A DNA stretch of 18,148 nt from the IMG/VR virus record IMGVR_UViG_2609459852_000016; one strand, 5' to 3'. Within the stretch, counting starts at the first letter, position 1; every line of letters begins with the position of its first letter. A program made the translations under genes and the position numbers. The notes beneath the pieces are model-generated. The model was given only the letters and a program-made list of their open reading frames with translations, was not told where the DNA came from and made no database searches. The stretch comes from a virus (Duplodnaviria; Heunggongvirae; Uroviricota; Caudoviricetes). Of the stretch, positions 1-16,592 are shown in pieces.

Positions 1-507
1 ATGGAAAAGTTTTCATTGGAGTTCAAAAAGGTAGTATCAGAAAAGTACCTGGAGGGAGAGTTGAGTCTGAAATCTGTAGCAAGGATGTACGGTATCAGTC
101 CCTGCACAGTAAGAAAATGGGCTTATGCCTATCGGGAACATGGGATAAGCATACTTACGGGTAAAAAAGGACGCTATTCTGCTGAGTTAAAACTCACAGT
201 AGTAAAAGAAGTCGTGGATGACTGTTTTTCTGTTCGTGAAGTAGCGGTAAAACACGGAATACCAGCCTTTGGTACTGTATGCAACTGGCTTGAAAAATAT
301 AGAAAATATGGCGAAGATGCTTTCATTCGAAAAAATAAAAAGAGTATTCCTGTACCGGATAAAAGCGCCATTTCAGCACCACCACTACCAACATTAACCA
401 AAGATGAGAGAGAAGAACTTGAACAACTCAGGGTCGAGAATGCCTACTTAAAAAAGCTGAAAGCCTTGGTTCAGCAGAAAACATGCTCAACGTTCAGGAA
501 AAAGTGA
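1..507 (+). CDS. IS3-family transposase OrfA (HTH DNA-binding, leucine-zipper-like C-terminus)
   Basis: ATG at 1, stop TGA 505..507. C-terminal LEQLRVENAYLKKLKAL heptad-like segment is typical of IS3 OrfA proteins. Confidence 0.85.
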   Translation: MEKFSLEFKKVVSEKYLEGELSLKSVARMYGISPCTVRKWAYAYREHGISILTGKKGRYSAELKLTVVKEVVDDCFSVREVAVKHGIPAFGTVCNWLEKYRKYGEDAFIRKNKKSIPVPDKSAISAPPLPTLTKDEREELEQLRVENAYLKKLKALVQQKTCSTFRKK

Positions 508-1346
508 GCATTGTGAATGAACTAAGGCAGGAATGGCCATTATCCCGATTGTTAATTGTTTCCGGGCTGCCCCGGAGTACATTTTACTATCATGTCAGAC
601 GGCTTGCTGCTCCTGACCGGTATCAGTCTGCCAGAGCGCTTGTGCTGAAAATTTATCACCAGCACAAAGGCCGCTATGGTTACAGACGCATCAGGCTGGC
701 ATGTCGTAACGAGGGGGTTTTACTTAATGGTAAAACCGTCAGAAAACTGATGAAGGAACTGGGTATTAGCAGCCTGATCCGCGTTAAAAAATACCGTTCA
801 TATAAAGGAGAACAAGGACGAATTTGCGATAATCTCCTGAAACGCAATTTTGATGCAAAACGCCCCAACGAGAAGTGGGTTACAGATGTCACTGAATTTA
901 AAGTGAATGGCAAGAAGCTGTATTTGTCGCCCATCATGGATCTTTATAATGGAGAAATAATTTCCTATAACCTCGCCACTCGCCCTCAACCTTCAATGGT
1001 GCAGACTATGCTTACGGATGCGCTGAAACAGCTGTCGAAAGATGAACACCCCATACTGCACAGCGATCAAGGTTGGCAATATCAGATGTCCCGGTGGCAA
1101 CGATGGTTAAAGGATAGCGGTATAGTCCAGAGTATGTCTCGCCGGGGAAATTGTCTTGATAATGCAGTTATAGAGAGCTTTTTTGGAACATTGAAATCAG
1201 AATGTTATTACCTCAATGAATATAAAAATGTGGAGGACTTAAAGCGAGACATCATTGATTACATAAACTATTATAATCAATTGAGGATAAAGGAAAAACT
1301 TGGCGGTCTTAGCCCGGTACAATATCGATTGAGTCAGGCTGCATAA
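483..1346 (+). CDS. IS3-family transposase OrfB (DDE catalytic domain), probably expressed as an OrfAB fusion by -1 frameshift
   Basis: ORF in the -1 frame relative to orfA. Slippery run G AAA AAG at 498..504 sits immediately before the orfA stop. DDE motif residues are present. Confidence 0.85.
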   Translation: MLNVQEKVSIVNELRQEWPLSRLLIVSGLPRSTFYYHVRRLAAPDRYQSARALVLKIYHQHKGRYGYRRIRLACRNEGVLLNGKTVRKLMKELGISSLIRVKKYRSYKGEQGRICDNLLKRNFDAKRPNEKWVTDVTEFKVNGKKLYLSPIMDLYNGEIISYNLATRPQPSMVQTMLTDALKQLSKDEHPILHSDQGWQYQMSRWQRWLKDSGIVQSMSRRGNCLDNAVIESFFGTLKSECYYLNEYKNVEDLKRDIIDYINYYNQLRIKEKLGGLSPVQYRLSQAA

Positions 1347-1373
1347 GTTGTCCAAGATCTGGGGCGCAGTTCA
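1347..1373 (+). repeat. Right terminal inverted repeat of the IS element
   Basis: Sequence gttgtccaagatctggggcgcagttca ends in CA; homology of the interrupted gene M breaks exactly here. Confidence 0.6.
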
Positions 1374-1586
1374 AAATGCGCGGACGCCACCGTGCCGTTC
1401 CAGAAAGGCTTTTAAAGATGGGTGTTCACATTTACGAACACGTATCGTCACGCTGTAAGTTGACAACTGGTTATTCAGTCCCGCCGCACGACGCTGTTCA
1501 TAACCATCGCCCAGCTTCACTGTCACCACTTTCGGCTCTGATACCACATTCATATCCGGGCGCACTTTCCAGTGAAACGTCTCCAT
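1371..1586 (-). pseudogene. M: Minor tail protein M (lambda gpM-like), truncated by the IS insertion
   Basis: Translation METFHWKVRPDMNVVSEPKVVTVKLGDGYEQRRAAGLNNQLSTYSVTIRVRK...HGGVRAF matches lambda gpM (MKTFRWKVKPGMDVASVPSVRKVRFGDGYSQRAPAGLNANLKTYSVTLSV...HGGWKSF, from memory). The reading frame ends in a TGA formed by the first three bases of the IS terminus. About 70 of roughly 109 codons remain. Confidence 0.7.
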
Positions 1587-4500
1587 TACCGATATGCTCC
1601 ACTTAACCGACCACCATCACGGGCCTGCTGTTGCATAAAGTCCGCTGCCGCTTTTTTCCCAAGGTCATAAACCACCTTCAGGGCAGCCGGACCTATCTGC
1701 CCGTTCGTGCCATCGTTATTGATCTCGATGTTGTACTGCGGGGCAAACATCGCCATACCTGAACCACCAATATCCGCCACAACCCCCAGCTTACCGTCAG
1801 CACCACGACGCAGAGGCAGAATGGCTTCAGGTCCCGCTTCACCCATCACACCCGCGCCTTTTGCAAAAGCAAAAAACGTCGGACGGTTAACCACCGTGCC
1901 ACTGTAACGACTCAAATCAGCAGACTGATAAATCCCCCCATTGGCATTCAGGGAAAGGCTGCTGAGATCAAATCCCAGTACACTGCCAATCCCTTTTATC
2001 GATTTCATCATGGTTGCCTGCGCCAGGATTTTCGCCATATCTGACAGCACAGAAGAGGTGAAGGATTTGAAATTGAGTTTGCCGGTAGTGACAAAAGTTG
2101 CCAGGCCATTTCCCATGTTGCTGAAGGCTGACGAGAACACCTGTTCTGCTGTTCCTGCCGTATTATCTGCATCCACGGTAAAATCCTGAAATGCACGCAG
2201 GACTCCGTTTTTCCAGTTACCCTGCACAACTTCAAGCTGTTGCCAGTAACGGCGATTCTCATTCAGTTGTCGGTTCAGGCTCTCCGTCAGCGCCTGCTCG
2301 GCCTTTCTGTAGTCATCCGTGTTATATGTCCCTTTCTGCTCACTATCCCGCCTCAACTGCTCCAGCTGTTGCTGGTATTTCTGGCGAAGACTCAGTTGTA
2401 CCTGATATCGCTGCCGCTGCTGATCACCCATACCCACCGTGGCGATATCCAGGTCATGTTGCTGACGCTGAGCGCGCTCTTCTTCAGCCAGTTGACTGGT
2501 CAGCTGAATTGTTTTTTTCTTCAGATCGTTGAGTGCCGTCTGTTTCTGAAGCTCCTGCTGTTTTACATCCAGCAGCGTCAGTGCCTGAATCAGTTCATCT
2601 TTACGGGCCAGCACACTCTTTTCATCTGCCGTCAGTTTTTTCCCGTCCAGATCGCTGATGCGCTGCTGCAGAGCCAGAAGCTGTTTATGCGCTTCTGTCA
2701 TCTTTTCAGTGGCAATGCCTGCTGACTGTCTTGCAGCAGCAATCTGTCCTTCCACCTGTGCCTGTTGCTGACTGTACTGCAGCAATAACCGGGTGGCCTC
2801 ATCATTACGGGTTTCGCGTGTTTTTTTCTTACCGGATGCCAGGGCTTTCTCGTAACGTTCATTTTCACGTTGTATCGCTGCATCCCTGACAGCCTGATCG
2901 GCGTACTGCATGGAATTAATACGCGCAATTTCACGCTGATGTCGTGCTGCTTCCGTTTCATTCATCCGGTTCAGTGCAGCATTTTCAGCATTACGTCGTT
3001 TCTGTTGCTCCTGATAATTCCGCTCTGCCTGCTCTTTTGCATCCTGCAAATCCTTCTGGCGTTTTTTCTCCTGAAGATCGTTAAGACGCTGCTGATCGTA
3101 TTCAACCTGAGAAGATGATGCCGTCCAGGGGAGTCTTTTCGCCCGCGACACTTTCTCCTGTAAAGCGGCAATCTGTTCATCCAGCGAGTCTTCACGACCA
3201 ATATTCATGGCCGCATCCCAGAAACGACTCCACAAATCAGACAGATACTTCAGCGTACTGCCAAGCGCATTGAGGTTATCATCAATATCCGCAGTACGCC
3301 GACCGGTTTCCTCTGCCAGTGCAGACATGGCTATCCGTGCAGCATCACTGGACCGTCCCTGATCCCCAAGGACACGTATCTGCTCAAGCTGAGTGGCAGT
3401 AAGAAAATGCAGCTCATTGTCCAGAGCCTTCGCGGCATTTACAGGATCATCCTTCAGCCGCTTAAACTGATTTATGGTATCGCTGACCGACTGGCCAACC
3501 GATCGCTCCATCTGTGCGGCAGCTCTCGCCACCATACCGATATCGTTTCCACGAAATGCACCACTCCCCACCACCTGAGCCAGCGCACCGGCTGCAGCAT
3601 GTTGCGTGATACCATTCCCGGAAATAGCACGACTGAGCGTCCACAGCTGCCCGGCAGTGACTCCGGCATAATGCCCCGTCAGCGACAACTGGCGGTTAAA
3701 TTCTTCCCCCTCCTTCTGACCGTCATACCAGGCTTTACCCAGACCATAGACGGACGCGGCAATACCGCCAATAACCCCGCCAAGCATCATGCCTTTCGGT
3801 GACATCAGAGTGTCTATCCATCCGGCACGGTTAGCCAGCGTTATCCCGGATCCCCTCAGCGCCCCTAAATTGCCGCGGGCCAGTTCACCTATCAGAACGC
3901 CTATCTCCTGGCGGGCCGCTGCACTTTTCAGACCCAGCGAATGCGTGGCTTTTCCTGCCTGCTCCATTTTGCGGATATACACTTCTGCAGCACTGCTTAC
4001 CCCCAGCTGGGCAGCCTTAGCACGAAGCAACTCAGAAGAAGAAAGATTCTGGCGGGTTGCCTGCTCTTTAAGCTGACGGATAAACGCCACTTTCTGTCGG
4101 GTAGCCTCTTCCTCAGCCTGCGTAAGAACACGGGTTTTCGCCGTAACCTCAGAAATCAGCGCCAGATAATCCTGCTGACCAATCCCGCCACTGTTTCTGG
4201 CCTGTCGGATCTGCTGCTGAATACGCTGTAATTCCTGCAGCCCCGCACTGGCCTGTTTCACACTGTCAATCTGACGATAAAACGCGGCAGCCGCTTTATC
4301 CTGAGCCTCCGCCAGAGCCATGGCCTGCGCCTGTTCCTCGCGCATTTTCTGGCTCAGTGCCTCCATACGCTGGCGGGTTTGCTCCACCTCGCGGGCCATG
4401 CGTTCATGAGCCTGTGCGCTCTTCTCCACCGTCTGCGCATGGACGGATGCGGCTGTTGCAGCCGAAGAAGCCGCCTGCATTGTCTGCCGGGCGGCCTGAG

Positions 4501-4651
4501 TCTGACGCTCCATAAAACGCTGCATACGGGCAGAAGACCGTTCTGCATCGCTGGCTGCACCATTCAGAAGGTTTTTGATACGGGGAATTTCATTTTTAAA
4601 CTCTGCCGCATCAATCCCCAAATCAATGACCAGGTTGGCTATCTGGTCCAT
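1586..4651 (-). CDS. H: Tail tape measure protein (lambda gpH-like)
   Basis: N-terminus MDQIANLVIDLGIDAAEFKNE and C-terminus EINNDGTNGQIGPAALKVVYDL resemble lambda gpH. ATG at 4651 is preceded by GGAGG; the track start at 4681 is a TTG. Stop TAA overlaps the M start (TAATG). Confidence 0.9.
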   Translation of the reverse strand: MDQIANLVIDLGIDAAEFKNEIPRIKNLLNGAASDAERSSARMQRFMERQTQAARQTMQAASSAATAASVHAQTVEKSAQAHERMAREVEQTRQRMEALSQKMREEQAQAMALAEAQDKAAAAFYRQIDSVKQASAGLQELQRIQQQIRQARNSGGIGQQDYLALISEVTAKTRVLTQAEEEATRQKVAFIRQLKEQATRQNLSSSELLRAKAAQLGVSSAAEVYIRKMEQAGKATHSLGLKSAAARQEIGVLIGELARGNLGALRGSGITLANRAGWIDTLMSPKGMMLGGVIGGIAASVYGLGKAWYDGQKEGEEFNRQLSLTGHYAGVTAGQLWTLSRAISGNGITQHAAAGALAQVVGSGAFRGNDIGMVARAAAQMERSVGQSVSDTINQFKRLKDDPVNAAKALDNELHFLTATQLEQIRVLGDQGRSSDAARIAMSALAEETGRRTADIDDNLNALGSTLKYLSDLWSRFWDAAMNIGREDSLDEQIAALQEKVSRAKRLPWTASSSQVEYDQQRLNDLQEKKRQKDLQDAKEQAERNYQEQQKRRNAENAALNRMNETEAARHQREIARINSMQYADQAVRDAAIQRENERYEKALASGKKKTRETRNDEATRLLLQYSQQQAQVEGQIAAARQSAGIATEKMTEAHKQLLALQQRISDLDGKKLTADEKSVLARKDELIQALTLLDVKQQELQKQTALNDLKKKTIQLTSQLAEEERAQRQQHDLDIATVGMGDQQRQRYQVQLSLRQKYQQQLEQLRRDSEQKGTYNTDDYRKAEQALTESLNRQLNENRRYWQQLEVVQGNWKNGVLRAFQDFTVDADNTAGTAEQVFSSAFSNMGNGLATFVTTGKLNFKSFTSSVLSDMAKILAQATMMKSIKGIGSVLGFDLSSLSLNANGGIYQSADLSRYSGTVVNRPTFFAFAKGAGVMGEAGPEAILPLRRGADGKLGVVADIGGSGMAMFAPQYNIEINNDGTNGQIGPAALKVVYDLGKKAAADFMQQQARDGGRLSGAYR

Positions 4652-5350
4652 AACGCACACCTCCGGAAATACCTTCCCCAAGATGCATCAGTTCTTCGTC
4701 CGTTCGCTCCGGTATCCCGTTCTCTTCCGGTAAAAGGCTGAAATCAGCCACCGCAGCATCACTGCTACCGGACACCATTCTCACGATCAATGCCTTCAGC
4801 GAGGCAAACTGCGCATCCATCCACACATCACTGAAGCTCTGCATCCGGAAATAATCGCCCCACTCACCAAGCTCAGTGGCCGACATTTCCGACAGCATCC
4901 GCCGCCAGTCTGCCCGCCGGAACTCCCGGGCAAGCCGCATGACAAACTGCATTTCCCGCGTCAGGACTTTTCCGGCGTCAGCACCTCATGCTCCAAATCC
5001 CCGGCATTCTCAATGACTCCCATACCGCTCAGCGACAGAACCATCTCCGCCCCCGCTCCCAGGGCATCATACGACCATGTTGTAATAACGGATGCGCAAA
5101 GCGTCTCAACATCCTGAGACTGTTCCGCATTCCACAGTGAGCGGGAAACCAGCCAGGCATTGATATCCATCCCCATCCGCAGAAAAGCAATCTGTCGTTC
5201 AGCCTCCGGCAGTTCTCCCTCTTCGGCATCAAACTTTGCCGTTCGCTGCTGAACAAACGCCAGATATTCAATTCTCTGCAGCCCGGACAGCTCACTGAGC
5301 ACCACGGACTGCTTTTCATAATTAAACGTGCCCTGTTTCAGAAACATCAT
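4623..5350 (-). CDS. Tail assembly chaperone GT fusion, made by programmed -1 frameshift near the end of G
   Basis: The T-frame ORF (4623..4952) lies in the -1 frame relative to G and overlaps its 3-prime end. Candidate slip site GGAAAAG (plus-strand 4967..4973, read on minus) is analogous to lambda GGGAAAG. The T frame is closed by a stop 13 nt upstream of the slip site. Confidence 0.6.
4961..5350 (-). CDS. G: Tail assembly chaperone G (lambda gpG-like)
   Basis: MMFLKQGTFNYEKQSVVLSELSGLQRIEYLA resembles lambda gpG (MFLKTESFEHNGVTVTLSELSALQRIEHLA). ATG at 5350 (or 5347) is preceded by GGTGGAG; the track start at 5389 is a TTG. Confidence 0.8.
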   Translation of the reverse strand: MMFLKQGTFNYEKQSVVLSELSGLQRIEYLAFVQQRTAKFDAEEGELPEAERQIAFLRMGMDINAWLVSRSLWNAEQSQDVETLCASVITTWSYDALGAGAEMVLSLSGMGVIENAGDLEHEVLTPEKS

Positions 5351-5363
5351 GTTCTCCACCTGC

Positions 5364-5387
5364 AAAAAAGCCCCGGATAACCGGGGC
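5364..5387 (-). terminator. Intrinsic terminator between major tail gene V and G
   Basis: On the minus strand: GCCCCGG-UUAU-CCGGGGC (7-bp GC stem) followed by UUUUUU, lying between the V stop (5408) and the G SD/start (5350). Confidence 0.65.
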
Positions 5388-5407: not shown

Positions 5408-6151
5408 TTAACCTGCGGCGCTGACAGCCACCGCAGCCACTGCCACAAAATCGCCGTCAGAAGTCATGCCCACAATGCTGACACTGCCCTGCTTCACGCC
5501 TTTCACCGTGGCCACAAGCCCGTTCAGGGTCACCGTGGCAGTCTGTGGATCTGTCGAATGCACACTGATCGCTTTGTCACTGGCTCCGTCAGGTTTTACT
5601 GTAAAGGTCAGCGTGGTGGTTGCTCCCACTTTTACACTGGCAGATGCCGGTGCCACCGTCAGCCCGGTAACGCTCACTGTTTCAGTGCCTTCCTCTGCCA
5701 GATACGGACGCCCCACACCGCTGATTTTCACTGTGCGGGTCATCACGTCTTTTGAGGCAATGGTTTTACCCAGTGAGCTCAGCCAGCCACGGAAAACATC
5801 AACAGTGCCGTTGGGATATTTGATACGAAACGCGCAGACTTCACCGGAGTCGAACAACTGAACCAGTTTTTTCTGCCCGCTGTCACCCGGACGCCAGGCC
5901 AGCGTCGCCGAAGTATCACCGACGGATTTCTGCCCCTGGGTTGTCGTTTTCCAGTCTGCATCTTCATCATCGAGATAAGTGTCATCTTCTGCATCAGCGG
6001 TCATTTCGCCAGGTTGCAGATCCTTCACCATCGCAAGACGCAGCCAGTCAGTGTCCGATAAAGGGTTCGCAAACGCATCGCCCTTGCCGGTGTACATCCA
6101 GAACGTCGTTCCCGCACCTTTCGTTTTTGCCAGTGGATTTGGTGTGGTCAT
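5408..6151 (-). CDS. V: Major tail protein V (lambda gpV-like) with C-terminal Ig-like domain
   Basis: MTTPNPLAKTKGAGTTFWMY...YLDDEDADW...NGTVDVFRGW matches lambda gpV. ATG at 6151 is preceded by AGGAGG; the track start at 6157 is a GTG. Confidence 0.9.
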   Translation of the reverse strand: MTTPNPLAKTKGAGTTFWMYTGKGDAFANPLSDTDWLRLAMVKDLQPGEMTADAEDDTYLDDEDADWKTTTQGQKSVGDTSATLAWRPGDSGQKKLVQLFDSGEVCAFRIKYPNGTVDVFRGWLSSLGKTIASKDVMTRTVKISGVGRPYLAEEGTETVSVTGLTVAPASASVKVGATTTLTFTVKPDGASDKAISVHSTDPQTATVTLNGLVATVKGVKQGSVSIVGMTSDGDFVAVAAVAVSAAG

Positions 6152-6162
6152 TGCCACCTCCT

Positions 6163-7828: not shown

Positions 7829-9787
7829 TTACGCCGTACATTTCACCAGACCGCGGTGATCAACTGGCGCGACACCGGCGTCAATACGCACTTTCGTTGT
7901 CACGCCATCCACACTGAAGCCCTCCATCTGATCAATATATGGCGTATCCACACCGTTGAGATAAGCCACTTCAATCGTATCGGAGCCTTTTGACGCAGCC
8001 AGGTAGAAGGTGGTCTGGCTGTTATCATCAAGACGAGGCTCTGCAATAACGGTCGCAAAATCTTTCACCGGGTTAATAATACCGGCGTTAATGTCAGCCC
8101 CCTTGACACTTGAGGAGCGAATGACCTGGTTAGCAACAGACTCCATCGCCGTCGGTACCAGTACGAACGCAGGACGAATATTCAGATGACGCTCCCCCTC
8201 TTTCTGAACGCGCATCAACTGGCGGGCTTTATCCAGCGATGCCACGTCCATTGCAGCGCTCTCCAGTACGTTTGCATGTTTCGCTTTATCGAACAGACTT
8301 ACATTATCTGTGGAGATTTTCGGGTTAGACGTCAGAATGGCATAAACCAGATCGGCAATAGTGGATTTCGCCGCACGGCCCAGTTTCATCGGGACATCGG
8401 TCAGCATATTCAGATCATCATTGATAATGGCCTGACGGGTGATACTGAACAGCTCGCCATAGGTCGCCAGTGCAATAGTGGCCTGTTTATCTCCGGTGGT
8501 GACGTATTTATATTCCGCCCCTTCACGCACCTGACGCAGAGCACTGAAGCCCCCCATACCCACACGATGGGCAATTTTAAAATCAGACAACTGACCTTTC
8601 CGCGTCCACTGTTCATAGGTTTCAGGGGCATCTTCCCAGCCCTGCAGAATGGCTTTGTTCGCAACATCCAGCAGAATATTACCGAAGTCAGACGTACTGT
8701 GTGTGAACGCCGCACCGACCATCTGCATCGGGTTATAACCGGAAACCCCAATACCCCGTTCAGTTAGTGACATACGGGCATATTCACGCAGGGTCATCCC
8801 GTTGTAGACATTATCACGTTCGGTTTTTTCAAATCCGGCACGCGCCATCAGCGCCTGGCGAATCCCGTCCCCCACAAAATTACCGTTACCGGCATAAATA
8901 TGAGCCGGGGTATTTTTATTGGATGGCGTGGACTCGCGCCCCATCTCGTTCAACAGCTTTTCACGGGCCTGCTCCAGCGAACATTCAGGATCGGCAAGAC
9001 ACTGGGCCTGCAGCGTCTGATAACGCCCACCAAACATGGCAAACAGATCATTAATACCGTTTACACGCGCTTTTTGCTCTGCCAGTACCTGCGCACGGAT
9101 ACTGTTTTCATCCACCACGGGTGCTGCTGCCTGCACTGGCGTCCGGGAGGCTGCAGGTTCATCATCCTGTACGCGTGGAGCACTGTTGCGTGGCGGAGTA
9201 ATCATGTTTCGAATGGATTCCGGCATCTTTTTAAATTCCTCTGTACGTTTTGACTGAATACATGCCATTGCCTTAACGGCTGGTGTCACCTGATCAGCAA
9301 ATCCCTGTGCCAGACATTCGGCACCGGACATCCAGGTCTCATCCGCCAGCATGGCAGCAATTTCATCGGTGGTTTTCCCGGTTTTCTGTGCATAAGCGGG
9401 TAACAGAACCGCCTCAACTTTATCGAGCAGGTCGGCATAGGTGCGCATGTCCTCCGCATCACCGCCCGTAAAGCCAAATGGTTTATGAATCATCATGAAG
9501 GAGTTTTCCGGCATAATGACCGGGTTTCCCACCATCGCAATGACCGACGCCATTGACGCCGCCACACCGTCGACATAAACGGTAATGGACGCACCATGTG
9601 TTTTCAGTGCATTAAAAATGGCGATGCCTTCAAAGACATCGCCACCCGGTGAATTAATATGGAGATTAATGTGGGTGATATCGCCCAGTGCATTCAGATC
9701 ACTGATAAACTGCTTCGCTGTAACACCCCAGAAACCAATCTCGTCATAAATATAAATATCCGCGTCACTCTGGTGACCTGCCTGCAT
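7829..9787 (-). CDS. Prohead protease (ClpP/S14-like) fused to major capsid protein (HK97-fold)
   Basis: N-terminal ClpP-like region (DIYIYDEIGFWG...INSPGGDV...GVAASMAS...MIHKPF), then an Ala/Pro-rich linker and a roughly 400-aa capsid-like C-terminal region. ATG at 9787 is 14 nt after the portal stop; the longer track ORF overlaps portal by about 250 nt. Confidence 0.75.
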   Translation of the reverse strand: MQAGHQSDADIYIYDEIGFWGVTAKQFISDLNALGDITHINLHINSPGGDVFEGIAIFNALKTHGASITVYVDGVAASMASVIAMVGNPVIMPENSFMMIHKPFGFTGGDAEDMRTYADLLDKVEAVLLPAYAQKTGKTTDEIAAMLADETWMSGAECLAQGFADQVTPAVKAMACIQSKRTEEFKKMPESIRNMITPPRNSAPRVQDDEPAASRTPVQAAAPVVDENSIRAQVLAEQKARVNGINDLFAMFGGRYQTLQAQCLADPECSLEQAREKLLNEMGRESTPSNKNTPAHIYAGNGNFVGDGIRQALMARAGFEKTERDNVYNGMTLREYARMSLTERGIGVSGYNPMQMVGAAFTHSTSDFGNILLDVANKAILQGWEDAPETYEQWTRKGQLSDFKIAHRVGMGGFSALRQVREGAEYKYVTTGDKQATIALATYGELFSITRQAIINDDLNMLTDVPMKLGRAAKSTIADLVYAILTSNPKISTDNVSLFDKAKHANVLESAAMDVASLDKARQLMRVQKEGERHLNIRPAFVLVPTAMESVANQVIRSSSVKGADINAGIINPVKDFATVIAEPRLDDNSQTTFYLAASKGSDTIEVAYLNGVDTPYIDQMEGFSVDGVTTKVRIDAGVAPVDHRGLVKCTA

Positions 9788-9800
9788 CCTGAACCAGGAA

Positions 9801-11309
9801 TTATTCTTCGGACTGGTCGTCGGTGTGCTGCGGCTCCTGTCGTTTCGTTGCGGCACTGCTGCCTCCTTTATCACTGGCCGGATCGGTATCAAATACCAGA
9901 TCCAGCTTGCGGTTTTCATCAATTTCGGCCTTGCGCCGACGTTTGACATCATCCGGATTACGACCACCTGCACGTACCCAGTCTGATTCTGTCGCCGCTC
10001 CACCACGAATCTGAATTTTCCAGGCCTCAGCCTCCTTAACAGGGTCAATCCACGGCATCACCGGTCCGGAATACACCGCGGTATACAGTGAAGAACGATC
10101 AAGATCGCGGGGTAGCCTGATAACACCGGATGCCACAGCCTGTTTCAGCCAGGCACGATACATCGGGCGGGTGACGGCACCAATAAACCAGTCCTGCAGG
10201 ATCAGGTAGCCATCAGTGGATTCAACCAGCTCCTGACGCTGGGCGCTGTAAGTGCCGTTATAGTTGCGTGCCGTACTGGAAAAACTCAGACGGCTGCCCG
10301 CCGCCACGGCACGCAACTGACCATTACGAAAAGTTTCAAGGTTAGGATTGGGACGATCCGACTTCACCATTCCGATTTCTTCGCCGGGTTTCAGATCGTC
10401 GTAAATAATGCCTGGCTGAATGGTAAGCTCGCGTTCATTCTCCTTGCTGCCATTACCATCCGGTTCATAGCTCTGCCCGTCGCCTTTCCGGATGTACATC
10501 CCCAGAGCAGCGGCGATCCTTGCTGCAGTCAGCTCAGAATCTTCATACTCTTTCAGGGCACTGAGGCGGATCAGCACACCGGACAACAAAGACGTCCCGC
10601 GCATCTGGTGCAGACGGCGAACAAATTTAAGATGCAGCATTCGCTCTGCATCCACTTCTTTGGTTTCCATCTGCCGCCCGGATACGGGACGGCTTTTATA
10701 CACCAGATATTTTTCGGGACGCCCCCAGTCATCAACAAACACGCCCTGATTCAGCCTGTTGCTCTCATCACTGGTCATGGGAATAAAGTCCGGCTCGAGC
10801 GCCTCCAGCCAGAAATGAACACCGGCAGAAGGCGTCAGGCTGTTTATGCGCCCGGAAACCATCTGGGCAAACACCTCACCATCGCGCAGCCAGGTACGCA
10901 GCATCAGACGTTCCAGCATCGGACGGGTAAACTGCCCGGTGACTTCCGGACTGACAGACCATTCACTCCATCGGGTGCGTATCTCCGCTGCCAGATCACG
11001 GGCAATGGCCCCATTGCGTAATACCGGATGTGGCTCGACAATAATCCCGTTTTTCCCCACCACCCGTTCTTCCAGCTTGTCAAATACACCAATAACCAGA
11101 TCGTGGTTGTTATCAAGGTAACGGGCCTGCTCACGTAACGACACGGCCCCGTACTGGCTTAACTGGTCGGCAGTTCGGTTTTCCCGCCGGGCTTTGTGTG
11201 TCCGTGTCGTTTTTACGGCCTCATAAGCCTGGATCACCGCACGGGAACGCAGCCTTGCCGCTTTCCATCCTGGTGAAAAAACGCCAATCACATCATCAAG
11301 AATTGCCAT
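9801..11309 (-). CDS. Portal protein (lambda gpB-like)
   Basis: About 500 aa, in the position between W and the protease/capsid gene. ATG at 11309 with GAGG SD, overlapping the W stop (TGATG). Confidence 0.8.
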   Translation of the reverse strand: MAILDDVIGVFSPGWKAARLRSRAVIQAYEAVKTTRTHKARRENRTADQLSQYGAVSLREQARYLDNNHDLVIGVFDKLEERVVGKNGIIVEPHPVLRNGAIARDLAAEIRTRWSEWSVSPEVTGQFTRPMLERLMLRTWLRDGEVFAQMVSGRINSLTPSAGVHFWLEALEPDFIPMTSDESNRLNQGVFVDDWGRPEKYLVYKSRPVSGRQMETKEVDAERMLHLKFVRRLHQMRGTSLLSGVLIRLSALKEYEDSELTAARIAAALGMYIRKGDGQSYEPDGNGSKENERELTIQPGIIYDDLKPGEEIGMVKSDRPNPNLETFRNGQLRAVAAGSRLSFSSTARNYNGTYSAQRQELVESTDGYLILQDWFIGAVTRPMYRAWLKQAVASGVIRLPRDLDRSSLYTAVYSGPVMPWIDPVKEAEAWKIQIRGGAATESDWVRAGGRNPDDVKRRRKAEIDENRKLDLVFDTDPASDKGGSSAATKRQEPQHTDDQSEE

Positions 11310-11521
11310 CAGAACCTCGCCAGCCGGTACCCGGGATGCCCCCGTCGTAGTGTAATCAGAGCCGCAAGGCGGCGCTCCCACTCCTGCCGTCCCTGCCGGA
11401 TCTCAGATAAGTTTTCCATGGTCATCTGCTGACCATTAAAGGTGACGGATTTTCCGTCCAGCACCGCCATTTCAGCTTCCGTATAACGCTGAATCATGGC
11501 TTCGATATCATTCTGGTTCAT
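11309..11521 (-). CDS. Head-tail joining protein W-like
   Basis: 70 aa, between terminase large subunit and portal as in lambda. ATG at 11521 overlaps the terminase stop (ATGA), with GGAGG 6 nt upstream. Confidence 0.5.
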   Translation of the reverse strand: MNQNDIEAMIQRYTEAEMAVLDGKSVTFNGQQMTMENLSEIRQGRQEWERRLAALITLRRGHPGYRLARF

Positions 11522-15809: not shown

Positions 15810-16016
15810 CTTCATTTTCACTTTCTTAAATCTAACGACAGATGGCTAACATTTAAGTATTGTGAAATATTATCAAATGTAATCATCATTGATTTACAAA
15901 AGATACATTTTGCCCCGAAAGGATTTCTGTCAGAAACATCAAAAGATGATGTTCTATACTGAGAACCATGGCAACACGGGCATCTAAAGTGAATATGGTT
16001 TGTAATATTTTCTACC

Positions 16017-16229
16017 TCAAAGTGCCACTACATGAACAGCTGCAGGGCCTTTAGGTCCGTTCTCAATACCAAATTCGACTTCCTGATTCTCAGTTAACGT
16101 TTTGAAATCGTTGCTCTGAATAGCTGAGAAATGCACAAACACATCTTTGCTACCATCTTTCGGCGTGATGAAACCAAAACCTTTTTCAGGGTTAAACCAT
16201 TTCACTAAACCAGTCATTTTGTTAGACAT
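16017..16229 (-). CDS. cspI: CspA-family cold-shock protein (CspI-like)
   Basis: [38 protein letters not shown]...: cold-shock domain with RNP motifs, near-identical to E. coli CspI as I recall it. AAGGTAATA SD-like leader. Confidence 0.9.
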
Positions 16230-16592
16230 CATTATTACCTTTTGAAGAAGTTAGCCCTTGGGCAGAATGGTCCGAAAAAAAATATCAGAGAGAAAAACCA
16301 ACAAGGAAATCTCAAGAGGTACAAATAATAAAATTATAACAATGACTGCTTCAGATAATTTTGTAACAAACCAGAACACCATTAACGCATGATTAACCAA
16401 CCATAGCAAGGATTACTTTTGTAAAGAAAAACACACGAATGAAACAATAGCTTTATTTATTAATAAAACGTGTCATTCTGTCTAATGACCTTTTATCTTA
16501 CCCTTAAGATTTCAAGGATTTTGACTCATGGAAGAGTCCTTTTTATTTAAATTTCACATTCAGCGCTAAAAATAATCCGATTTAATATTAAT
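16230..16592 (-). promoter_or_regulatory. AT-rich promoter and long 5-prime leader region upstream of cspI
   Basis: About 360 bp without ORFs between the Rz stop and cspI start. Contains a TATAAT on the minus strand (plus-strand 16333..16338). Cold-shock genes typically have long structured leaders. Exact promoter not resolved. Confidence 0.3.

What the first reader, a model, noticed from the sequence alone, without database searches (positions are those of the whole stretch)
4623..5350. G/GT tail-chaperone frameshift with a non-canonical slippery sequence
The T frame is open only from a stop 13 nt upstream of GGAAAAG to the G stop, so the -1 shift must occur in a window of about 25 nt. The only candidate is G-GAA-AAG (plus-strand 4967..4973), not the canonical lambda G-GGA-AAG: the P-site codon GAA would re-pair imperfectly with GGA. 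This is a variant slip site in an otherwise lambda-like tail module.
Basis: partly seen in the sequence, partly recalled or inferred. Interest (0 to 1): 0.4.

Follow-up and report, generated by a model that had tools for sequence, protein, structure and literature searches.

The report
Known variant tail-chaperone frameshift site
The phage tail-assembly genes G and T in this prophage are joined by a real -1 ribosomal frameshift signal, GGAAAAG instead of lambda's GGGAAAG, but this variant is common in lambda-like phages and is already annotated in phages N15 and LLS, so it is ordinary.

Summary
On the minus strand, a lambda gpG homologue (5350/5347..4961) is overlapped in the -1 frame by a gpT homologue. 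The T frame is open only from 4985, so any shift must occur within 22 nt. That stretch holds G_GAA_AAG (4973..4967) in the correct phase.

The heptamer is invariant, in phase and at the same place, in G genes only 31-45% identical in protein. Across lineages, the two frames' stop codons confine the shift to the heptamer plus 3 nt. No start codon for T is conserved.

It is not new. The N15 RefSeq record marks GGAAAAG as its -1 slippery sequence, and phage LLS annotates it with a joined CDS. GGAAAAG was the commonest form in my query-biased sample: 76 of 91 distinct junctions, against 14 GGGAAAG. A Pantoea lineage uses G_CAA_AAG, so the constant core is NNA_AAG.

One mild curiosity remains. In vitro work used G GAA AAG as the poorly slippery control, and I found no conserved stimulatory structure. 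The GenBank/RefSeq records I examined for this module annotate T as a separate gene, which is an annotation gap.

The parts
4961..5350 (-). Gene G (tail assembly chaperone). Start ATG 5350 or, more likely, 5347. Stop TGA 4963-4961.
   Evidence: Translation. Pfam PF06894 Phage_TAC_2 E=7e-40. RefSeq annotates the start equivalent to 5347.
4967..4973 (-). Slip heptamer G_GAA_AAG (0 frame GAA AAG; -1 frame GGA AAA).
   Evidence: Sequence. Invariant and in phase in 76 of 91 distinct related junctions. The same heptamer is annotated as the slippery sequence in N15 and LLS.
4986..4988 (-). TGA in the -1 (T) frame. It closes that frame 12 nt upstream of the heptamer.
4623..4967 (-). T segment, read in the -1 frame from GTC (re-reading G 4967) to stop 4625-4623. 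It gives 114 aa, for a predicted GT fusion of 241/242 aa with junction ...LTPEK|VLTREMQF...
   Evidence: Translation. Pfam PF06223 Phage_tail_T E=5e-15. The product is inferred, not observed.
4950..4952 (-). First ATG in the T frame, 8 nt after the G stop. Database records use it as the start of a stand-alone T CDS. It is not conserved in relatives.
   Evidence: annotated start. (CTG/CTT at this position in Gifsy-1, Fels-1, Gifsy-2).
4982..4987 (-). Shine-Dalgarno-like GAGGUG; its GAGG core lies 10 nt upstream of the heptamer. Candidate local stimulator, not conserved across the family.
   Evidence: Duplex with the anti-SD is -9.2 kcal/mol, in the top 6% of windows in the gene. Absent in N15 and others.
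5364..5387 (-). Intrinsic terminator hairpin plus T-run between V and G.
   Evidence: Sequence. Annotated as a terminator in Ayreon and mEp460, and as a stem-loop in N15.
5408..6157 (-). Major tail protein V (upstream neighbour).
   Evidence: Pfam Phage_TTP_12 E=6e-67 plus Big_2.
1586..4651 (-). Tape measure protein H (downstream neighbour). Its annotated start overlaps the end of T.
   Evidence: Pfam TMP_2, TMP_4 and Tape_meas_lam_C. Start position taken from the annotation of relatives.

Best explanation
This is the G/GT tail-assembly-chaperone recoding site of a lambda-like siphovirus tail module. Most ribosomes read G to its TGA and make gpG. A minority slip back one nucleotide on G_GAA_AAG (4973..4967), miss the G stop and continue in the T frame to make a 241/242-aa GT fusion. 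By homology with lambda, that fusion tethers the tape-measure-bound G domain to a T domain that recruits the major tail protein.

The driver is the E. coli tRNA-Lys moving from AAG to AAA, the A_AAG core. The P-site tRNA-Glu can re-pair GAA to GGA only with a G.U pair at the second position. I rate tandem slippage with this imperfect P-site re-pairing at about 60%. I rate a slip carried essentially by tRNA-Lys alone at about 40%.

Shown: the anatomy, the phase and the conservation. Inferred: that the shift happens, its efficiency and its mechanism.
For: Anatomy: V-G-T-H order and Pfam assignments. The T frame is open only 22 nt before the G stop, with GGAAAAG in phase.

Conservation: the heptamer is identical in Gifsy-1, Gifsy-2 and Fels-1 at 68-70% nt identity with diverged flanks. 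It is also identical in Citrobacter, Superficieibacter, Atlantibacter, Phytobacter, Pluralibacter, Providencia phage PSTCR8lys, N15 and LLS. Information content is 2.0 bits at all 7 positions and mostly below 1.5 bits in the flanks.

Comparative mapping: in L209 the T frame opens 3 nt before the heptamer. In PSTCR8lys the G stop follows it directly.

Synonymous choices: the codon before GAA ends in G in all 24 junction clusters, across six different codons. GAA (not GAG) and the rarer AAG (not AAA) are always used.

Protein conservation in the -1 frame starts right after the heptamer, as K[VA][LF]...EL.F..KLARE.

Viable phages (Ayreon, mEp460, cdtI, Tritos, phi458) carry this module at 97.6-99.7% identity. 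The junction was read in four of them (Ayreon, mEp460, cdtI, Tritos): the heptamer, the TCC TGA and the downstream sequence are identical.

The N15 and LLS records annotate GGAAAAG as the -1 slip site.

A_AAG is the most shift-prone tetramer in E. coli, and NNA_AAG hexamers are used by IS1222.
Against: There is no experimental product for this module. In a reconstituted E. coli system, AUG GAA AAG gave mainly 0-frame product and was described as unfavourable because of the second-position mismatch (PMC6924986). A_AAG without a stimulator is barely above background in vivo, about 0.15% (PMC4066793). I found no significant or conserved downstream structure and no Rfam element. The upstream SD-like motif is present here but not family-wide. 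A Pantoea lineage uses G_CAA_AAG, where P-site re-pairing is impossible. That argues against strict tandem re-pairing being required.
Confidence: 0.85

Rival explanations
1. The shift is a pure single-tRNA event of the NNA_AAG hexamer or A_AAG tetramer type. Only tRNA-Lys re-pairs (AAG to AAA), and the GG preceding it plays no pairing role.
For: [quoted passage not shown] The P-site codon varies in the family: GGA, GAA, CAA and once GCA. IS1222 (G_CGA_AAG) and B. subtilis cdd (A_CGA_AAG) use such sites.
Against: Heptamer position 1 is a synonymous third position in the 0 frame and is not decoded in the -1 frame after a tandem slip. Yet it is G in all 24 junction clusters behind six different codons. 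According to the review summary, tRNAs with greater wobble propensity favour hexamer shifting. From my own knowledge, tRNA-Glu carries the restrictive mnm5s2U34, so GAA would be a poor choice for a pure hexamer. Yet it was the commonest form in my sample.
Confidence: 0.3
2. T is made as a separate protein from ATG 4952, by ordinary initiation or by termination-reinitiation 8 nt after the G stop, as the database annotations imply. No frameshift is needed.
For: An ATG exists at 4952 and would give nearly the whole Pfam T domain. All records of this module that I examined annotate it that way.
Against: The ATG is CTG or CTT in Gifsy-1, Fels-1 and Gifsy-2, and is absent in lambda and others. No proper SD precedes it: GGGA sits only 2 nt upstream. 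This reading does not explain the invariant in-phase heptamer or the -1 frame being kept open exactly across it. [quoted passage not shown]
Confidence: 0.07
3. The site is a decayed lambda-type GGGAAAG (G to A mutation) in a defective prophage and no longer works.
For: It differs from lambda's site by one base. This prophage copy has an IS3-family element truncating tail gene M.
Against: In plaque-forming phages Ayreon, mEp460, cdtI and Tritos, the heptamer, the stop and the sequence downstream of it are identical to the window. The heptamer was the commonest form across deep lineages in my sample.
Confidence: 0.02
4. RNA polymerase slippage on the A-run, rather than ribosomal slippage, produces a shifted mRNA.
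For: None specific. The heptamer contains AAAA.
Against: The run is only 4 A. From general knowledge, productive transcriptional slippage needs runs of roughly 6-9 or more identical bases. The strict conservation of the codon phase and of AAG as the last codon is expected for ribosomal slippage, not for polymerase slippage.
Confidence: 0.02

Closest known systems
Bacteriophage lambda G/GT -1 programmed frameshift (G_GGA_AAG)
   Same: Homologous G (PF06894) and T (PF06223) between V and H. T lies in the -1 frame. The slip site is near the 3' end of G. The A-site codon AAG slips to AAA. No stimulatory structure is detectable. In lambda the shift is about 4%, with the 0 frame kept about 96% of the time.
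   Different: Position 3 of the heptamer is A, not G. The P-site codon is therefore GAA (Glu) and re-pairs with GGA through a second-position G.U. The G stop is 3 nt after the heptamer, against 15 nt in lambda.
Phage N15 genes 14/15 and phage LLS genes 11/12
   Same: Same gene family, and the same heptamer GGAAAAG at the homologous place. It is explicitly annotated as 'slippery sequence for -1 translational frameshift' in N15 and as 'minus-one programmed translational frameshift site GGAAAAG' with a joined CDS in LLS.
   Different: The G proteins are about 32% identical to this one. Their G stop is 15 nt downstream rather than 3 nt.
Gifsy-1, Gifsy-2 and Fels-1 prophages of Salmonella
   Same: Nearest diverged relatives (68-70% nt identity). 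They have identical ccGGAAAAG(t/c)cc TGA junctions. The Gifsy-1 and Gifsy-2 product names state that T is made by frameshifting from G.
   Different: Different flanking sequence. The coordinates of the slip site are not annotated.
NNA_AAG hexamer / A_AAG tetramer sites (IS1222 G_CGA_AAG; B. subtilis cdd A_CGA_AAG)
   Same: The -1 shift is carried by tRNA-Lys AAG to AAA, with a P-site tRNA that cannot re-pair canonically (PMC5009743).
   Different: Here positions 1-2 (GG) are conserved and allow a near-cognate G-C / G.U / A-U re-pairing. As a general expectation (not checked for these two cases), such weak sites rely on a downstream stimulator: A_AAG needed the IS3 pseudoknot to reach 5.6%. None is evident here.
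GGGGGAA 'fivetwo' motif of actinobacteriophage tail assembly chaperones (PRFect)
   Same: It proposes the same GAA to GGA re-pairing through G:U. That paper also lists a 'twofour' motif class, which GGAAAA fits by name (PMC10885494).
   Different: Different phage group and different register. It is a computational proposal only. I could not see the figure that defines the motifs.

Membership tests
Lambda-type G/GT tail assembly chaperone pair with -1 PRF | Upstream ORF is a gpG homologue | tested here: met
   PF06894 E=7e-40, covering residues 2-118. 33% identity to lambda G.
Lambda-type G/GT tail assembly chaperone pair with -1 PRF | Downstream segment is a gpT homologue in the -1 frame, overlapping the 3' end of G | tested here: met
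   PF06223 E=5e-15. The frame relation is shown.
Lambda-type G/GT tail assembly chaperone pair with -1 PRF | Located between the major tail protein and tape measure genes | tested here: met
   V at 5408-6157 and H at 1586-4651/4681.
Lambda-type G/GT tail assembly chaperone pair with -1 PRF | A conserved slip site lies in phase inside the overlap | tested here: met
   G_GAA_AAG is invariant in 76 of 91 distinct junctions. Frame boundaries in L209 and L168 pin the shift to it.
Lambda-type G/GT tail assembly chaperone pair with -1 PRF | T has no independent translation start | tested here: inconclusive
   This window has ATG 4952 without a good SD. It is not conserved in relatives.
Lambda-type G/GT tail assembly chaperone pair with -1 PRF | A GT fusion protein is produced at a low ratio to G | not testable with these tools
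   Needs expression with western blot or mass spectrometry, or a reporter assay.
Canonical X_XXY_YYZ tandem-slippage heptamer | Positions 1-3 are identical, so the P-site tRNA keeps its first two base pairs after the slip | tested here: not met
   Positions 1-3 are G, G, A. tRNA-Glu on GGA has a second-position G.U (described as a mismatch in PMC6924986).
Canonical X_XXY_YYZ tandem-slippage heptamer | Positions 4-6 are identical and the A-site tRNA re-pairs (A_AAG in E. coli) | tested here: met
   AAAG at 4970-4967. The AAG codon is invariant in all relatives.
NNA_AAG hexamer / A_AAG tetramer shift sites | Only the A_AAG core is constrained, and the upstream bases are free | tested here: inconclusive
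   The P-site codon varies in the family: GGA, GAA, CAA, GCA. Position 1 is nevertheless always G.
dnaX / IS-type stimulated -1 PRF | A conserved downstream hairpin or pseudoknot and/or an upstream SD-like stimulator | tested here: not met
   Downstream folds have z-scores between -1.7 and +1.7 and no shared structure. No Rfam hit. An SD-like motif is present in this lineage only, with weak family-wide enrichment at p about 0.02 from non-independent lineages.

The most novel reading that the evidence does not exclude
G_GAA_AAG, not lambda's textbook G_GGA_AAG, may be the prevailing and possibly ancestral slip site of lambda-type G/GT genes. It would work in vivo at a useful level even though biophysical work treats it as a non-slippery control. 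That would imply either efficient second-position G.U re-pairing by tRNA-Glu(mnm5s2UUC) or an unrecognised stimulator, such as the acidic nascent tail of G, the 3' CC context or a nearby stop codon. Because both slipping tRNAs (Glu and Lys) would be 2-thiouridine-modified, the G:GT ratio of these phages would be more tightly coupled to the host Tus/MnmA sulfur-relay pathway than lambda's is.
Probability: 0.2. Interest if true: 0.45.

Novelty: already known. Interest (0 to 1): 0.2.

Why it matters
There are two practical points. First, this module occurs in 1849 of 5426 complete E. coli genomes. In the RefSeq record examined, and in the Ayreon, mEp460, cdtI and Tritos records, T is annotated as a stand-alone 109-aa (Ayreon: shorter) protein and the GT fusion is missing. 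Annotation pipelines that look only for X_XXY_YYZ will miss it.

Second, in G_GAA_AAG the two frames encode different residues at the shift point, Glu-Lys against Gly-Lys. In lambda both frames read Gly-Lys. A junction peptide from this site would therefore show directly which codon the shift occurs on. The contrast with in vitro data, where the same sequence is the poorly slippery control, makes it a convenient natural test case for P-site mismatch tolerance. None of this changes what is known about how the tail is assembled.

Tried and rejected
Downstream stimulatory RNA structure. I folded 111-114 nt around and after the site (z = -0.97 and -0.48), and 60 nt downstream in 22 non-redundant lineages (z from -1.7 to +1.7, no common fold). 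Rejected.

Known RNA families. Rfam gave nothing relevant at gathering threshold or at E<=10.

Upstream SD-like stimulator. It is strong in this lineage (GAGGUG, -9.2 kcal/mol) but absent in N15 and several others. I keep it only as a lineage-specific candidate.

In-frame G-T fusions in relatives. L010-L012 have indels elsewhere and keep the heptamer. P0039 and P0092 are single-member deletion products. These do not count as evidence against frameshifting.

Chance occurrence. The heptamer is not rare in the window, so I did not rely on its presence alone.

Literature. Xu, Hendrix & Duda 2004 and Licznar et al. 2003 are not held in the library. I could not check whether GGAAAAG was listed or tested there. 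Full-text searches for GGAAAAG or 'G GAA AAG' with frameshift terms found only Peng et al. 2019 as relevant.

Census bias. My queries were mostly from GGAAAAG lineages, so the ratios 76:14 and 106:1 overstate its share. The one-genome-per-species scan gave roughly 7 GGAAAAG lineages against 5 GGGAAAG lineages.

Full report
**Observation**

The genes of interest lie on the minus strand.

- An ORF from ATG 5350 (or 5347) to TGA 4963-4961 encodes a 129/128-aa protein. It matches Pfam Phage_TAC_2, the lambda gpG family, at E=7e-40.
- The frame one nucleotide back carries a TGA at 4988-4986. It is then open for 120 codons to a stop at 4625-4623, and matches Pfam Phage_tail_T at E=5e-15.
- Upstream is a lambda-type major tail protein (5408-6157). 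Downstream is a tape measure protein (1586-4651/4681).
- The two frames overlap only between 4985 and 4964, a stretch of 22 nt. In the G frame this reads G GTG CTG ACG CCG GAA AAG TCC, followed by TGA.
- GGAAAAG sits at 4973..4967, phased as G_GAA_AAG in the G frame and GGA AAA G in the T frame.

The spacer to the T-frame stop is 12 nt rather than 13. The heptamer alone is not rare in this window: 6 copies against 3.1 expected. The case therefore rests on phase, position and conservation.

**Where the module occurs**

- The 861-nt G/T region is 97.6-99.7% identical to 17 phage records. These include the plaque-forming phages Ayreon, mEp460, cdtI, Tritos and phi458.
- It is present in 1849 of 5426 complete E. 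coli genomes.
- In the five records of this module that I examined, T is annotated as a separate CDS. In mEp460, cdtI, Tritos and RefSeq it starts at the equivalent of ATG 4952; Ayreon uses a later start. No ribosomal slippage is annotated.

**Conservation in relatives**

The nearest diverged relatives are Gifsy-1, Fels-1 and Gifsy-2, at 68-70% nucleotide identity. All keep ccGGAAAAG(t/c)cc TGA although the flanks differ. The Gifsy-1 and Gifsy-2 product names already state that T is made by frameshifting.

I then collected more loci from three sources:
- a one-genome-per-species scan;
- several viral-contig scans;
- individual phage records.

In 234 loci with intact G and T frames there are 91 distinct 67-nt junctions: 76 with GGAAAAG, 14 with GGGAAAG and 1 with GGCAAAG. 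After clustering the flanks at below 80% identity there are 21 GGAAAAG clusters and 3 GGGAAAG clusters.

The heptamer is always in the same phase. G proteins carrying it are as little as 31-45% identical to one another. They come from Citrobacter, Superficieibacter, Atlantibacter, Phytobacter, Pluralibacter, a Providencia phage, N15 and LLS.

Information content is 2.0 bits at each of the seven positions and mostly below 1.5 bits in the flanks.

My queries were biased towards GGAAAAG lineages. The per-species scan gives roughly 7 GGAAAAG against 5 GGGAAAG lineages. So both forms are common, and GGAAAAG is at least as common as lambda's.

On a neighbour-joining tree of G proteins, GGGAAAG falls in two non-sister clades. 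One is lambda/E. albertii and the other is Serratia/Symbiopectobacterium. The two heptamers have therefore been exchanged more than once.

**Evidence that the heptamer is the shift site**

- In one lineage (L209) the T frame opens only 3 nt before the heptamer. In Providencia phage PSTCR8lys the G stop follows it directly, as GGAAAAG TAG. Taken together, the shift is confined to the heptamer plus 3 nt.
- The T-frame peptide is conserved from just after the heptamer, as K-[VA]-[LF]-...-E-L-x-F-...-K-L-A-R-E. It is not conserved upstream of it.
- The ATG at 4952 is CTG or CTT in the Salmonella relatives and absent in lambda and others.
- Synonymous choices are fixed. The codon before GAA ends in G in all 24 clusters, although it is CCG, GCG, CTG, GTG, ACG or GAG. 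Glu is always GAA, and Lys is always the rarer AAG. Naive probabilities from the codon usage of these same genes are about 3e-9 and 1e-16. These are overstated because the lineages are related.
- The only in-frame G-T fusions found are two singletons created by deletions. Three draft contigs with indels elsewhere keep the heptamer.

**Mechanism**

The best-supported explanation is a -1 ribosomal frameshift that yields a 241/242-aa GT fusion with junction ...LTPEK|VLTREMQF.... This rests on homology with lambda. There, about 4% of ribosomes shift at G_GGA_AAG, and the G:GT ratio matters for phage production (PMC5009743 and PMC3296357).

The A_AAG core is the most shift-prone tetramer in E. coli. 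It is barely above background without a stimulator (about 0.15%) and reaches 5.6% with the IS3 pseudoknot (PMC4066793). NNA_AAG hexamers are used by IS1222 and occur in B. subtilis cdd.

After a -1 slip, tRNA-Glu (anticodon UUC) would face GGA. That gives G-C, G.U and A-U pairs.

Peng et al. used exactly AUG GAA AAG as the unfavourable control next to G GGA AAG. They obtained mainly 0-frame product at all EF-G concentrations, although EF-G domain 4 mutants raised shifting on both sequences (PMC6924986).

The invariant G at position 1 argues that P-site re-pairing contributes. Against a strict requirement, a Pantoea lineage has CTG CAA AAG CCC TGA at the homologous site. There tRNA-Gln cannot re-pair with GCA. 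One contig has G_GCA_AAG.

The constant feature of the family is therefore NNA_AAG with G at position 1. I rate tandem slippage with imperfect P-site pairing at about 60%, and a slip carried by tRNA-Lys alone at about 40%.

**Stimulators**

- No significant downstream structure exists in this window (z = -0.97 and -0.48).
- None was found in 22 non-redundant lineages, with z from -1.7 to +1.7 and no shared fold.
- No Rfam family matches.
- This lineage has GAGGUG, with its GAGG core 10 nt upstream. It pairs with the anti-Shine-Dalgarno at -9.2 kcal/mol, in the top 6% of windows in the gene. The spacing is like that of dnaX.
- N15 and others lack such a motif, and the family-wide enrichment is weak (p about 0.02, from non-independent lineages).
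- The base after the heptamer is always a pyrimidine. It is CC in 12 of 21 GGAAAAG clusters, the context reported as most shift-prone for A_AAA_AAG. That base also encodes Val or Ala in the T frame, so this is only suggestive.

**Comparison with what is known**

The N15 RefSeq record carries a misc_feature 'slippery sequence for -1 translational frameshift' at 10027-10033. I read that sequence as GGAAAAG. Phage LLS annotates 'minus-one programmed translational frameshift site GGAAAAG' with a joined CDS.

The PRFect paper lists a 'twofour' motif class. It also discusses GAA to GGA re-pairing through G:U in actinophage chaperone genes.

The variant is thus already recognised by phage annotators. 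In the searchable open-access literature, I found it discussed as a slip sequence only as the in vitro control. I could not read Xu et al. 2004 or Licznar et al. 2003.

**Verdict**

- The feature is an ordinary and widespread member of a known recoding system, and the variant is already known.
- Two residual points of interest remain. One is the mismatch between its natural prevalence and its in vitro reputation as poorly slippery. The other is that the junction peptide (PEKV against PGKV) could reveal the shifting codon, which lambda's site cannot.

Noticed in passing
window 1-1376 (+), with 1371-1586 (-): An IS3-family insertion sequence (orfA 1-507 with HTH/transposase domains; orfB 483-1346 with rve integrase core) abuts a 71-aa remnant of the tail gene downstream of H, which RefSeq annotates only as 'phage tail protein' (the gene M position in lambda's order). 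This prophage copy therefore has an interrupted tail module. The same junction at 99.8% identity is in E. coli EC93 (NZ_CP061329).
   Followed up: partly
window 450-456 (+): The IS3-family element carries a canonical A_AAA_AAG heptamer in phase in orfA (TTA AAA AAG), upstream of the -1-frame orfB. This is a second, textbook -1 frameshift site in the same window.
   Followed up: partly
window 15971-16387 (-): Rfam cspA thermoregulator (RF01766) match at 110 bits against a gathering score of 78. It covers a 71-aa ORF (16017-16232) and looks like a cold-shock protein gene with its 5' UTR, carried in the prophage late region.
   Followed up: no
window 5364-5387 (-): A GC-rich hairpin plus T6 lies between V and G. 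It is annotated as a terminator in Ayreon and mEp460, with an equivalent stem-loop after N15 gene 13. It probably lowers transcription of G, T and H relative to the major tail protein.
   Followed up: partly
window 7829-10048 (-): A 739-aa ORF combines a ClpP-type protease domain (residues 95-255) with a phage capsid domain (441-736). It overlaps the lambda-family portal ORF (9801-11381) by about 250 nt. It may be a protease-scaffold-capsid fusion, or its TTG start may be over-extended.
   Followed up: no
L249-L251 (Pantoea cypripedii lineage; heptamer at about 1602-1608 in L249/L251 and 1611-1617 in L250): The homologous G/T junction reads CTG CAA AAG (C/T)CC TGA, that is G_CAA_AAG. This is a third slip-site variant, in which the P-site tRNA cannot re-pair at all.
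   Followed up: partly
L189 (metagenomic viral contig; heptamer at about 1096-1102): A single N15-like contig has G_GCA_AAG (GCG GCA AAG) in place of G_GAA_AAG. It could be a natural variant or a sequencing error.
   Followed up: no
window 4623-4952 (-) and its equivalents in public records: The RefSeq record examined and mEp460, cdtI and Tritos annotate T as a stand-alone 109-aa CDS, and Ayreon as a shorter one; none gives a GT fusion. The module is present in 1849 of 5426 complete E. coli genomes, so this looks like a systematic annotation gap.
   Followed up: yes
P0039 (Salmonella Typhimurium, 212 aa) and P0092 (ENA metagenome, 233 aa): Two single-member proteins are in-frame G-T fusions produced by internal deletions. 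One joins ...TPEK to the middle of T. The other joins G to the T frame upstream of the heptamer. They are likely decayed prophages or assembly errors.
   Followed up: partly
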